DNA of 64,000 bases from Podarcis tiliguerta (taxonomy: Eukaryota): the NCBI GenBank assembly GCA_965153285.1, contig OZ229129.1. The stretch is one strand, 5' to 3'. This document shows, one piece after another, positions 30,001 through 33,000 of this stretch (position 1 is its first letter; every line of letters starts with the position of its first letter). The position numbers are program-made.

Positions 30001-33000
30001 TCTACCTCCCTTCTTAGAAATGCTTCAAATGAATCACCACCACACCTGGGACAGAACTCTAGTCTCCATTCTACCTATCCCACAATGCAGAAATTCAATC
30101 CATCACTGAGATGAAAAATTTGGGGTAGGGGAAGAGGATGATGGTAATATTGCTTGCCATGCCTGGCTCCTCAGTTTCACCAAGGCATCTGCCTGATGGC
30201 TGTCAGCTAACAAAAAGAGAAAATGAATAAGTGTAGAATAGATGCCACAGAAAGCACTTTAAGTGGATGGAACTGAATAGGTAAGGTGTAGTATGGGTCT
30301 TTAGGGGGGGTGTACACACACATTTTTAATGCTATGTGAAGTATGTTGTAGGCCAGAAGTAGACAATCTGGTGCCTTCCAGGTGTTGTTGTACTACCACC
30401 ATCCCCAGTCAGCATGGCCAAAGGTCAGGAGATGTAGTTCCATGTTGGCTACTTCTGCTGTGCATTGTGATGGTAGCCAGATGGAATTCTGTATTGCAAT
30501 TTATTAGTTCAAGAACAAAGGAAAGTTTGCCGCTTAGTGCTACTGCTTGAGGTGGAGTGAGGTGGGGTCAGTGGTGCTTTTAATTTTTTTTTTATTCATC
30601 TTCCGTTGTAATTTTTTGACAAAGACTTTTGACAAAGTCCCCCATGATATTCTCATGAGGAATCTGGTAAAATATGGGTTGAACGATGTAACTGTTAGGT
30701 GGATTTGTTGCTGGTTGACTGACTGAACCCAAAGAGTACTAATGGTTCCTCATCATCCTGGAAAAAAGTGACAAGTGGGGTACTGCAGGGTTCTGTCCTA
30801 GGCCTACTGTTGTTCAGCATCTTATAAATGACTTGGATGAAGTGGGGGGTGAGTGGGGGGTGGGGCTCATTCAATTTGCAGATGGCACCAGCAGATGAGG
30901 GGTAGCGAATGCCGCAGAAGACAGAATCAGAATTCAAAATGACCTTAACAGATTGGAGAACTGGGCACAAGCTAACAAAATGAATTTCAGTAGGGACAAA
31001 TGTAAGGTTCTGCACTTAAGCAGGAAGAACCAGATGTACAAATATAGGATGGGGGACACAATAGCAGTACCACAAGCTTAACATGAGTCAACAGTGTGAT
31101 GCAGCAGCACAAAAAGGTAATGCTATTCTGCGCTGCATCAACAGAAGTATAGTGTCCAGATTAAGGAAAGGAATAGTACCACTCTATTCTGCCTTGGTCA
31201 GACAACACCTAGAATACTGTGTCCAATTCTGGGCACCACAATTTAAGAAGGATGTTACAAGCTGGAGAGTGTGTAGAGGAGGGCAACCAAGATGATCAAG
31301 GCTCTGGAAACCAAGCCTTATGAGAAACGCTTGAAGAAGCTGGGTATGTTTAGCCTGGAAAGGAGGAGATACGATAGCCATATTCAAATATCTTAAGGCA
31401 GGGGTCCTCAGACTTTTTAAACAGGGGGCAAGTTCACTGTCCCTCAGACACTGTTAGAGACTGGACTATAATTTGAAAAAAATATGAACAAATTCCTATA
31501 CACACTGTACATAATTTATCTGTGGTGCACAAAAAACAAGAAAAACAATATAATATTTAAAATGAAGAACAATTTTAATCAACATAAACTTATAAGTATT
31601 TCAATGAGAAGGATAGGCCCGCTTTTGGCTAATGAGATGGTCAATATCCAGTTGCATATTTCTCACTGCTAGTTGTAGCAAGTGACGCAAGCAGCTTTTG
31701 GCTTATTCCACCTGCTCATTGCAAGAACTGAGTCATGAAGAAATAGGTTTGCTTTTCCACCTCCTCCCTCCCACTCCTTTTTCCTTTAGTGCTGTGTATT
31801 CCCCATTGTAAGCCTGAGAAGGCGGTTTCTTCGCCGACATCTGCAAGCTGCAATGTGATAACACCCCTACCACACTGCACAACTTTTGTGTTTGTGTGGC
31901 CTAGCAGCATGATTAAAAAACAACAACACTTTTTACTTTGGGGGTTAAAATTAAACTGAAAGTTAATTGGGTCGGCCCCACCTCTGCTTATTTTCTGCGA
32001 AAAGCTAAAAGAGTCCATACTGAGCCCTTACCGAAAACGAAAATCCACCAGCTGGAACTGCCTAGCCAGAATCCAAAATCCAACCAGCAAACAAAGCCTC
32101 CCTTCAGCATCCCAGTCCTTACCCCGTGGAAGCTAAACCAGCGGCCCTCAGGCAGCTCCTGGACTCCATCTCCCTTCAGCCCCTGCTACCAGGTCATTCG
32201 GGGGGGCTGATGGGAGTTGTAGTCCACGAGCAGCCTGAGGGGCCCACAGGCTTCCCACACACATGCCTGAGGCAGGGGGCCTGCGAAGCCCCACGTGAGC
32301 GCCAAGGCTGCAGGGTGTTGAGTGGAGGCTGGCAGGAGCTAAACGCGTTCCCTCAGCCCGCAAGGAGAGGGCTCGCCCGTTCCCAGCGAGGAGAGGCGAC
32401 TAGGCCTCACAGGCCTCACAAAAAGGGGCGGCATTTGTGGGCCAAGGTGGAGCCGGCAAGGGGAGCCGGCTGAGGCCCGTGAGGGGAGAGCGAGCATGTG
32501 GCAGCAAGAGAGAGCAGGCGCGTGAACAGAGGAAGTTGCCAGCCTGGCCCACAAGGCAGCGGCAGCAGCAGCGGGTTTTTTCCTTGGGCCTGGGGGAGCC
32601 TGCCTCCCTGCCTCTTGCACCTGAAGATGCCGGGTGGCGGTGGCAATTGCCGGGCGGGCTGGGTTCAGGACCCTGGTGAGCCAGATCTGACCCGCGGACC
32701 ATAGTTTCAGGATCCCTGTCTTAAGGGCTGTCACATGGGAGAGAGAGCATACTTGTTTTCTCCTGCTCTGGAAGGGAGAGGGTCCCTTCCAACTCTAAGA
32801 TTCTATGATTCTGTTTTCAGTCTATAAAATATCATTTTTACAGTGTTTGGACTCCTTTATCCCTCAAGCTACTTAATTAGATATTATGAACACCTTGGAG
32901 ACAGAAATAATTTTGCATTCAGGCTAAACTGCTGTAAGCTGCTCTGGGCTACAATATGGAGGAGAATGCATTTTTGAATTGGTGTTCAGAGCACCTTTCC

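What the first reader, a model, noticed from the sequence alone, without database searches (positions are those of the whole stretch)
31399..32718. Pack-TIR-like hAT: transposase replaced by ~950 bp of apparent host DNA and still mobilised
Seen: TIRs and a perfect 8-bp TSD (TCTTAAGG) bracket 1320 bp inserted mid-CR1, whose frame FKYLK|GCH rejoins across it. Only the last ~30 transposase codons (31601-31690) and ~80 bp of the other arm remain. The interior (about 31693-32640) shows no transposase similarity and contains its own older palindromic MITE (about 32130-32258), so it looks like genomic DNA rather than cDNA. Established: Pack-MULE/Pack-TIR elements duplicate host fragments. The arm resembles, from memory, the OC1/OposCharlie-like hATs known for horizontal transfer among tetrapods. 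Inference: a DNA transposon that captured and moved a host locus fragment.
Basis: partly seen in the sequence, partly recalled or inferred. Interest (0 to 1): 0.7.

Follow-up and report, generated by a model that had tools for sequence, protein, structure and literature searches.

The report
Gutted OC1 transposon carrying foreign DNA
A 1.3-kb dead copy of the OC1 "jumping gene" sits inside an older repeat with its middle replaced by unrelated non-coding DNA, which is a common fate for such elements and is not shown to be a captured host gene.

Summary
Window 31399-32718 is a 1320-bp hAT element with a perfect 8-bp duplication (TCTTAAGG) and 13/16 terminal inverted repeats, inserted in the tail of a CR1 LINE. 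A second CR1 copy in the window runs straight across the same site. A published OC1 (OposCharlie1) consensus matches the 3' 292 bp (last 29 transposase codons, same stop, 3' UTR, TIR; about 83% by hand alignment) and the first 40-90 bp of the 5' end. Three consensus motifs each hit only here. About 940 bp in between shows no extended OC1 similarity by eye and no coding signal. It holds a 133-bp palindromic repeat that has a relative elsewhere in the window, plus a GC-rich stretch.

What is not shown: that the middle copies a unique host locus, or that the composite itself ever moved. No parental copy lies in the 64 kb, and the genome was not available. Two other OC1-like elements in the window have different middles. 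The OC1 paper already reports non-autonomous copies with internal regions of unknown origin. I read it as an ordinary gap-repair derivative, not a demonstrated Pack-TIR. Interest is low.

The parts
31391..31398 (.). Left copy of the 8-bp target-site duplication TCTTAAGG
   Evidence: It maps to the same 8 bp of the CR1 paralogue as the right copy.
31399..31600 (-). OC1 3' non-coding end (about 202 bp), including the terminal inverted repeat at 31399-31414 and a subterminal repeat of the TIR core (GTCCCTCAGAC, about 31439-31450)
   Evidence: The OC1_Das 3' terminal 31-mer matches 31399-31429 (-) with 2 mismatches and is the only hit in the window; 0 of 100 shuffles gave a hit. Hand alignment.
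31601..31690 (-). Last 29 codons plus the stop of the OC1 transposase (LRHLLQLAVRNMQLDIDHLISQKRAYPSH*)
   Evidence: Translation. The consensus 33-mer matches 31616-31648 (-) with 2 mismatches, a unique hit. By hand, 21/29 residues and 52/60 nt are identical to OC1_Das 2281-2340. The 60 nt upstream match at only 10/60, so the breakpoint is sharp.
31691..32628 (.). Interior of about 940 bp with no extended OC1 similarity and no coding signal
   Evidence: Pfam found no transposase or other credible family in 28 ORFs of 25 aa or more. The 135-aa ORF found no protein relative. There is no other copy in the window: the best blastn hit scores 29.7 bits, against a maximum of 31.1 bits in 30 shuffles. 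The comparison with the OC1 5' region was by eye only.
31694..31706 (-). 13-nt patch, 3 nt from the 3' breakpoint, that repeats a piece of the OC1 tail (31621-31633) at 12/13
   Evidence: the repeat finder family D12. I read it as a slippage or filler signature; that reading is inference.
32126..32258 (.). Palindromic MITE-like repeat (perfect-register arms 32145-32183 and 32203-32241)
   Evidence: nhmmer gives E = 0.0011 to 41345-41464, itself a palindrome with 57-nt arms. Rfam gives only sub-threshold miRNA-hairpin matches on both strands.
32261..32628 (.). GC-rich part of the interior (GC 0.66, CpG o/e 0.49, against 0.18 for the whole window)
32629..32718 (-). OC1 5' arm, including the TIR at 32703-32718. 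The inner boundary is uncertain: firm to about 41 nt, probable to 65-90 nt.
   Evidence: The OC1_Das 5' 23-mer matches 32696-32718 (-) with 3 mismatches, a unique hit. Three-way alignment with the two other OC1-like elements of the window. Hand counts are 33/41, then 18/31 for consensus positions 61-91.
32719..32726 (.). Right copy of the target-site duplication TCTTAAGG
30590..31398 (+). Host CR1-type LINE, left part (decayed reverse-transcriptase C-terminal region)
   Evidence: Frames. RVT_1 is only weakly matched (E = 0.054, profile 164-194 of 205) at 30899-31078. 73% identity over 432 columns to the copy at 42156-42568.
32727..32815 (+). Host CR1, right part, ending in ATTCTATGATTCTGT. The (ATTCTRTG)n CR1 3' hallmark is recalled, not tested.

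Best explanation
This is a decayed, non-autonomous member of the OC1 (OposCharlie1, hAT-Charlie) transposon group. It keeps about 90 bp of the OC1 5' end and 292 bp of the 3' end: the last 29 codons, the stop, the 3' UTR and the TIR. Roughly consensus positions 91-2280 are missing, which is the rest of the 5' leader and about 572 codons.

In their place are about 940 bp of non-OC1, non-coding DNA. This DNA is itself a mosaic: an unknown 435 bp, a 133-bp palindromic repeat of another family, and a 370-bp GC-rich stretch.

Shown: an OC1 element inserted into the tail of a CR1 LINE and made an 8-bp duplication.

Inferred: the deletion and the filling arose together by interrupted gap repair with template switching, after a transposase cut. 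This is the usual way that hAT and P elements give rise to deletion derivatives with 'filler'. With no transposase of its own, the element could move only if OC1 transposase from elsewhere recognised its two ends.

It is an ordinary kind of derivative. The filling may well come from the host genome, but neither a unique parental locus nor movement of the composite is demonstrated.
For: Family:
- Three motifs from the published OC1_Das-Auto consensus (PMC3621081, Additional file 1) each hit the window once. Each hit lies at the expected end and on the expected strand, and 0 of 100 shuffles gave a hit.
- Hand alignment gives about 240/288 nt for the 3' arm and 21/29 residues with the same stop.

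Sharp breakpoint: identity falls from 52/60 to 10/60 across consensus position 2281.

Insertion: TSD and TIR and a paralogous CR1 that is continuous over the site.

Non-coding filling:
- 0 credible Pfam families in 28 element ORFs.
- 0 relatives for the 135-aa ORF.
- Rfam gives sub-threshold hairpin matches only.

Mosaic with another repeat.

Filler signature: a 12/13 repeat of an OC1 tail segment lies 3 nt from the breakpoint (D12).

Ordinariness:
- Two further OC1-like elements in the same window have perfect 8-bp TSDs and quite different middles. One is 11690-11939 (250 bp); the other is 34263-34658 (396 bp).
- The OC1 paper states that OC1_Das_NA has an internal region of unknown origin, and that the dunnart copies have a different one (passage read).
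Against: - The comparison of the interior with the OC1 5' leader was by eye only.
- I saw three isolated shared words, in the same order but with different spacing, on the + strand (11/13, 9/9 and 10/10 nt). By my rough estimate that is about the chance level for GC-rich DNA, but it is not excluded as remote, inverted homology.
- A lineage-specific autonomous relative with a different, longer 5' region cannot be excluded.
- Pfam and both protein searches also missed the true transposase tail, so their silence on the interior is weak evidence.
- Only one copy was seen. The mechanism is inferred from what is known of hAT and P elements, not observed.
Confidence: 0.62

Rival explanations
1. One reading: a Pack-TIR. 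The interior would be a duplicate of a unique host locus, captured between OC1 ends, and the composite was then transposed, possibly to several sites.
For: - The interior is not recognisably OC1 (by eye).
- It contains a repeat of another family, as genomic DNA would.
- It is GC-rich, and multicopy Pack-TIRs and Pack-MULEs are reported to favour GC-rich captures (passage of PMC8277862).
- The element's ends and TSD are intact.
Against: - No parental copy lies within the 64-kb window. Yet 56.9% of animal Pack-TIRs lie within 15 kb of theirs, and most are single-copy products of transposition-independent gap filling.
- No coding fragment was found, which the plant Pack-TYPE definition requires.
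- High CpG content is no mark of a captured promoter here. The neighbouring OC1-like MITE at 34263-34658 has a higher CpG o/e still, 0.67-0.73.
- One copy with one TSD does not show that the composite moved.
Confidence: 0.2
2. Made in place: a full-length OC1 inserted into this CR1. The deletion and filling then arose at this very site during repair after an excision attempt. The composite has never moved, and the TSD belongs to the original insertion.
For: - It is compatible with everything seen: a single copy, an intact TSD, a sharp breakpoint and a slippage-like patch at the junction.
- Tan et al. conclude that most single-copy animal Pack-TIRs arise without transposition (passages).
Against: - In that study the template is usually nearby, and none lies within about 31 kb on either side here. 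The five N runs total 860 bp, and each is too short to hide it.
- This reading cannot be told apart from the best explanation without other copies or an orthologous locus.
Confidence: 0.3
3. Simple internal deletion: all or much of the interior is the element's own 5' leader, from a lineage-specific OC1-like autonomous element whose 5' region differs from the marsupial consensus.
For: - The published OC1 5' leader (positions 1-564) is also GC- and CpG-rich.
- A few short words are shared (by eye).
- The arms are about 17% from the marsupial consensus, so some family divergence is real.
Against: - The paper reports 90-95% identity between OC1 consensus sequences of different hosts over their whole length, lizard included (passage). 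A retained leader should therefore be plainly visible at the roughly 83% identity seen in the arms, and it is not.
- The leader is 564 bp, while the interior is about 940 bp.
- The purine-rich strand of the interior is opposite to that of the OC1 leader (by eye).
- The interior contains an unrelated palindromic repeat.
Confidence: 0.1
4. Later nesting: a short OC1 MITE (5' 90 bp plus 3' 292 bp) inserted here, and one or more other TEs later inserted into it.
For: At least the 133-bp palindrome is a member of another repeat family and could have arrived later.
Against: - I saw no duplication or inverted ends at the interior's outer boundaries (31690/31691 and about 32628), nor around the palindrome (by eye).
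- A nested insertion exactly at the deletion junction would be a coincidence.
- The rest of the interior matches nothing else in the window.
Confidence: 0.1

Closest known systems
OC1 / OposCharlie1 non-autonomous elements (for example OC1_Das_NA; PMC3621081)
   Same: - Same family of ends: 5' and 3' OC1 termini with 8-bp TSD behaviour.
- The transposase is deleted.
- The internal region is not derived from the autonomous element. The paper calls that of OC1_Das_NA 'of unknown origin' and notes a different one in the dunnart.
   Different: - OC1_Das_NA is 192 bp with 45 bp of unknown filling, and its breakpoints are given as 36 and 2337. This copy is 1320 bp with about 940 bp of filling and breakpoints near 90 and 2281.
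- It keeps 29 codons of the transposase.
- Its arms are about 17% from the marsupial consensus (hand count).
Animal Pack-TIRs (Tan et al. 2021, PMC8277862; passages read)
   Same: TIR-transposon ends on both sides of non-TE-like internal DNA. hAT examples exist, such as Pack-hAT-N8_XT in frog. Gap filling with template switching is the proposed origin.
   Different: Their definition needs an identified parental copy: BLAT identity of 90% or more, a unique top hit, and no TEs flanking it. None was found in the window, and the genome could not be searched. Part of the interior here is itself a repeat.
Plant Pack-MULE / Pack-TYPE elements (Gisby and Catoni 2022, PMC8903248; passages read)
   Same: A non-autonomous TIR element with foreign DNA between its ends.
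   Different: Pack-TYPE elements carry fragments of coding genes. No coding similarity was detected here.
Ds-type deletion and filler derivatives of maize Ac, and internally deleted P elements (recalled from the literature, not read here)
   Same: Interrupted gap repair leaves both ends, a sharp internal breakpoint, and short duplicated or foreign 'filler' at the junction, as with the 12/13 patch at 31694-31706.
   Different: A different host and family. The mechanism is inferred here, not shown.

Membership tests
hAT superfamily | 8-bp target-site duplication | tested here: met
   TCTTAAGG on both sides, 8/8. The paralogous CR1 has a single copy of the site.
hAT superfamily | Short terminal inverted repeats beginning CAG/TAG | tested here: met
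   CAGGGGTCCTCAGACT against CAGGGATCCTGAAACT, 13/16. The binomial probability of 13 or more matches is 3.8e-6.
hAT superfamily | hAT transposase (BED finger, RNase-H-like core, C-terminal dimerisation domain) | tested here: not met
   No Pfam hAT domain in 28 element ORFs. Only 29 C-terminal codons remain, so this is a non-autonomous derivative and not a coding member.
OC1 / OposCharlie1 family | Nucleotide similarity of both termini to the OC1 consensus | tested here: met
   Three consensus motifs of 23-33 nt each hit uniquely at the expected place and strand, with 2-3 mismatches. Hand alignment gives about 240/288 (3') and 33/41 (5'). No program alignment was run.
OC1 / OposCharlie1 family | Transposase reading frame and stop codon co-linear with OC1 | tested here: met
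   21/29 residues identical, with the stop at the same position and about 200 bp of 3' UTR as in the consensus (hand count).
OC1 / OposCharlie1 family | Within the 90-95% identity range reported between OC1 consensus sequences, allowing for copy decay | tested here: inconclusive
   The arms are about 83% identical to the marsupial consensus (hand count). The reported figures are 90-95% between consensus sequences and 5.5% mean copy divergence in the lizard, which would predict roughly 85-90%. This is borderline: it could be an old copy or a sister subfamily.
Pack-TIR (animal definition, PMC8277862) | TE termini on both sides of the internal sequence | tested here: met
Pack-TIR (animal definition, PMC8277862) | A unique parental copy elsewhere (identity 90% or more, length ratio 80-120%) that is not flanked by TEs | not testable with these tools
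   The source genome was not available. Within the window none exists. Two scans of genome contigs for OC1 motifs gave 0 hits, and that collection holds bacteria and archaea only.
Pack-TIR, multicopy or mobilised | Several copies of the same composite with different TSDs | not testable with these tools
   Only this copy is in the window.
Pack-TYPE / Pack-MULE (plant definition, PMC8903248) | The internal DNA is a fragment of a coding gene | tested here: not met
   No credible Pfam family in 28 ORFs of 25 aa or more. For the 135-aa ORF, 31 word-sharing candidates were found and none scored E <= 0.001. The tests are weak for short or decayed exons.

The most novel reading that the evidence does not exclude
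OC1 is a transposon documented to have crossed between vertebrate and invertebrate hosts. Here it may have picked up a CpG-rich, promoter-like piece of host genome and still be, or have been, mobile as a composite. It could then duplicate host regulatory DNA within the genome and, in principle, carry host DNA along in a horizontal transfer.
Probability: 0.05. Interest if true: 0.6.

Novelty: new member of a known kind. Interest (0 to 1): 0.2.

Why it matters
As it stands it matters little. It is one more non-autonomous OC1 copy with a foreign middle, a class already described for this family and for hAT elements in general.

It would matter only if a genome-wide search showed a TIR-less parental locus and several transposed copies. 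OC1 is among the transposons best documented for horizontal transfer between distant animals, so a host-DNA-carrying OC1 would be a candidate vehicle for moving host sequence. The window also gives a tidy local illustration: three OC1-like elements with three different interiors within 23 kb.

Tried and rejected
- **Pfam on element ORFs.** I scanned 32 ORFs, 28 in the element and 4 in the flanks. Only four weak, unrelated hits came up (E 0.005-0.5: CIP2A_N, DUF6896, DUF5551, Pox_E6), which I reject as noise.
- **Pfam on window ORFs.** I scanned 40 of the 60 window ORFs of 100 aa or more and found 0 families. Of the 20 dropped, 14 overlapped N runs and 4 lay in the element and were covered. The other 2 were antisense overlaps (34355-34678 and 45598-45915) that I simply left out.
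- **Transposase tail in protein databases.**
  - A 43-aa read-through with X at the stop found no candidate.
  - Exhaustive phmmer of the 33 aa against 1.84 billion representatives gave 0 hits at E <= 0.001.
  - So no OC1 transposase protein could be obtained, and there was no tblastn of a full transposase against the interior.
- **Other copies through predicted proteins.** I searched with the 135-aa interior ORF and found none. Not even a self-hit came back, so the database simply does not hold such ORFs from this genome.
- **OC1 DNA in genome contigs.** A conserved 24-mer and the 5' TIR motif each gave 0 hits.
- **Literature string search.** I searched with five window strings. It returned 3 unrelated papers.
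- **mir-5408 in papers.** 0 papers. The link of that Rfam family to lizards is my recollection only.
- **Gilbert et al. 2010 (PMC3004126).** It is said to hold the lizard OC1 consensus but is not held in the library.
- **tRNA scan.** 0 genes.
- **Internal TIR-like string at 32270-32282.** It matches the left end at 12/13 (D11). I rejected it as chance because no matching TSD follows.
- **CpG richness of the interior as a sign of a captured CpG island.** I set this aside because the neighbouring OC1-like MITE is more CpG-rich still.
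Full report
**What is there**

Window 31399-32718 (1320 bp) is bounded by CAGGGGTCCTCAGACT on the left and, in reverse complement, CAGGGATCCTGAAACT on the right (13/16). It is flanked by TCTTAAGG at 31391-31398 and 32719-32726.

I scanned all 9,620 pairs of identical 8-mers lying 60-5000 bp apart in the window. Five had inner 16-mers inverted at 12/16 or better.
- Three of the five begin (C/T)AGGGGT: this element, a 250-bp element at 11690-11939 (TSD TTCTAAAG, TIR 14/16) and a 396-bp element at 34263-34658 (TSD GCATAAGG, TIR 12/16).
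- Of 20 block shuffles, 2 gave one hit each and 18 gave none.

So the TSD/TIR signal is well above chance.

**The target is a CR1-type LINE**

Upstream + strand frames read like the C-terminal part of a LINE reverse transcriptase. Pfam gives only a weak RVT_1 match there (E = 0.054). The frame ...[12 protein letters not shown]| on the left and |GCHMGERAYLF on the right are in the same codon phase relative to the TSD.

Instead I aligned each flank separately to a second CR1 copy in the window, at 41878-42568 on the minus strand. That copy matches the left flank at 73% over 432 columns. It is continuous across the site with one copy of the 8-mer (TCTAAAGA), and both TSD copies map onto that same 8 bp. 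This stands in for an empty site.

**Which family**

Pfam saw no hAT domain in any of 28 element ORFs.

The verification came from the literature. Additional file 1 of PMC3621081 (supplement read) prints the OC1_Das-Auto consensus: 2571 bp, with the transposase at 565-2370. Three short motifs taken from it each hit the window exactly once, at the expected end and strand of this element:

| Motif | Window match | Mismatches |
|---|---|---|
| 3' terminal 31-mer | 31399-31429 (-) | 2 |
| 5' terminal 23-mer | 32696-32718 (-) | 3 |
| 33-mer at the end of the coding region | 31616-31648 (-) | 2 |

In each case 0 of 100 shuffles gave a hit.

I also aligned by hand the minus strand of 31399-31690 with consensus 2281-2571.
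- About 240 of 288 aligned positions are identical (about 83%), with some 9 gap positions.
- The translated tail LRHLLQLAVRNMQLDIDHLISQKRAYPSH* shares 21 of 29 residues with the consensus translation and has the same stop.
- Immediately upstream of consensus position 2281, identity falls from 52/60 to 10/60. This is a sharp breakpoint at window 31690/31691.
- At the other end, the first 41 nt match 33/41 and positions 61-91 match 18/31.

A three-way alignment with the two other OC1-like elements of the window supports arm homology to about 65 nt. The 3' arms agree for about 105 nt with the 11690 element.

These counts are mine, made by eye from tool outputs.

**The interior (about 31691-32628, roughly 940 bp)**

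*Coding.* Nothing credible in Pfam. The 135-aa ORF has no relative: 31 word-sharing candidates, none at E <= 0.001. These tests are weak, since they also miss the real 29-codon tail.

*RNA.* Only sub-threshold miRNA-hairpin matches on both strands of the palindrome, for example mir-616 at 38 bits against a threshold of 100 and mir-5408 at 35.5 against 90. No tRNA genes.

*Other copies in the window.* None. The best blastn hit scores 29.7 bits, against a maximum of 31.1 bits in 30 shuffles. The one exception is an nhmmer match (E = 0.0011) between 32127-32243 and 41345-41464.
- That second place is itself a palindrome with 57-nt arms, 77% complementary.
- It shares the core ...GGAC.CCA..TCCC.../...GGGAGTTG..GTCC....
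- The interior palindrome has 39-nt arms at 87%. As DNA it folds at -41.6 kcal/mol, z = -5.7.

*Composition.* The right-hand 368 bp has GC 0.66 and CpG o/e 0.49, against 0.18 for the window. This is not good evidence for a captured CpG island, because the OC1-like MITE at 34263-34658 has CpG o/e 0.67-0.73.

*Against the OC1 5' leader (positions 91-564).* By eye I found no extended similarity in either orientation.
- I found only isolated words (11/13, 9/9 and 10/10 nt), about what I estimate chance gives in GC-rich DNA.
- The purine-rich strand of the interior is the opposite of that of the OC1 leader.

This point needs a program alignment.

**How it most likely arose**

A 13-nt patch lies 3 nt from the 3' breakpoint (31694-31706). 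It repeats a segment of the OC1 tail 73 bp away at 12/13 (D12). Such short local duplications at deletion junctions are the classic mark of interrupted gap repair with template slippage or switching, as known from Ac/Ds and P elements. That knowledge is recalled, not read here.

A deletion and a filling at the same junction are most simply explained by one event. That makes a later nested insertion less likely, and I saw no TSD at the interior's outer boundaries.

The OC1 paper itself says that OC1_Das_NA has an internal region "of unknown origin" and that the dunnart copies have a different one. In this window, three OC1-like elements carry three unrelated interiors. The kind is therefore ordinary for this family.

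**What is not shown**

The Pack-TIR reading needs a parental locus, and the word "mobilised" needs several copies with different TSDs.
- Tan et al. (PMC8277862; passages read) found 370 Pack-TIRs in 100 animal genomes. Most are single-copy, 56.9% lie within 15 kb of the parental copy, and they are made by gap filling without transposition.
- No source lies within about 31 kb on either side here. The five N runs total 860 bp and each is shorter than the interior. They were left as they are.
- A single copy with one TSD proves that an OC1 element inserted here. It does not prove that the composite moved, because repair after excision can rebuild a gutted copy at the same site.
- The plant Pack-TYPE definition requires captured coding DNA (PMC8903248; passages read), and that is not met.

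**What stayed unchecked**

- The source genome, Dfam and Repbase were not available.
- Genome contigs (bacteria and archaea) gave 0 hits for two OC1 motifs.
- Gilbert et al. 2010 is said to contain the lizard OC1 consensus, but it is not held. Its supplements could bear directly on whether the interior is OC1-derived.
- The supplements of Tan et al. were not opened.

I do not take the window for human: OC1-type and CR1 elements of this kind point to a non-mammalian vertebrate, probably a squamate. That is inference only, and the organism was not determined.

**Verdict**

The "captured host locus, still mobilised" interpretation is unproven and is not favoured over an ordinary gap-repair derivative. 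This is a new member of a known kind, of low interest unless the genome search shows a parental locus and several transposed copies.

Noticed in passing
window 11690-11939: A 250-bp OC1-like hAT MITE with a perfect 8-bp TSD (TTCTAAAG) and 14/16 TIRs. Its left about 105 bp and right about 65 bp are homologous to the 3' and 5' arms of the finding's element.
   Followed up: yes
window 34263-34658: A 396-bp OC1-like hAT MITE with TSD GCATAAGG and 12/16 TIRs. Its 5' subterminal region resembles the OC1 consensus 5' end (by eye). Its interior is built of direct and inverted copies of a unit of about 22 nt (by eye). It accounts for the only CpG-island-like stretch in the window (34201-34700: GC 0.58-0.59, CpG o/e 0.67-0.73).
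   Followed up: partly
window 41337-41488: A palindromic MITE-like repeat (57-nt arms, 77% complementary), related to the palindrome inside the element. The core motif resembles the Rfam family mir-5408, with scores well below threshold. That mir-5408 is a lizard miRNA is my recollection, and no paper was found.
   Followed up: partly
window 41878-42568 (minus strand): A second decayed CR1 copy, 73% identical to the one that hosts the element. It served as an empty-site proxy.
   Followed up: yes
window 16130-18629 and 59249-61778: Two further pairs of identical 8-mers with 12/16 inverted inner ends, about 2.5 kb apart. The ends are not hAT-like. They are possibly chance, since 2 of 20 shuffles gave one such hit.
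   Followed up: no
whole window: No Pfam family in 40 of the 60 ORFs of 100 aa or more, and no tRNA genes. Overall GC is 0.41 and CpG o/e 0.18. There are five N runs totalling 860 bp (15120-15251, 16551-16682, 28129-28340, 43481-43620, 52707-52950). The window looks like non-coding, repeat-rich vertebrate DNA.
   Followed up: partly
window 32628-32703 (+ strand): An ATG in a good context (GAAGATGCC) opens a 25-codon frame that runs out through the OC1 5' arm to a stop before the TIR. It lies at the arm/interior boundary and is most likely fortuitous.
   Followed up: no
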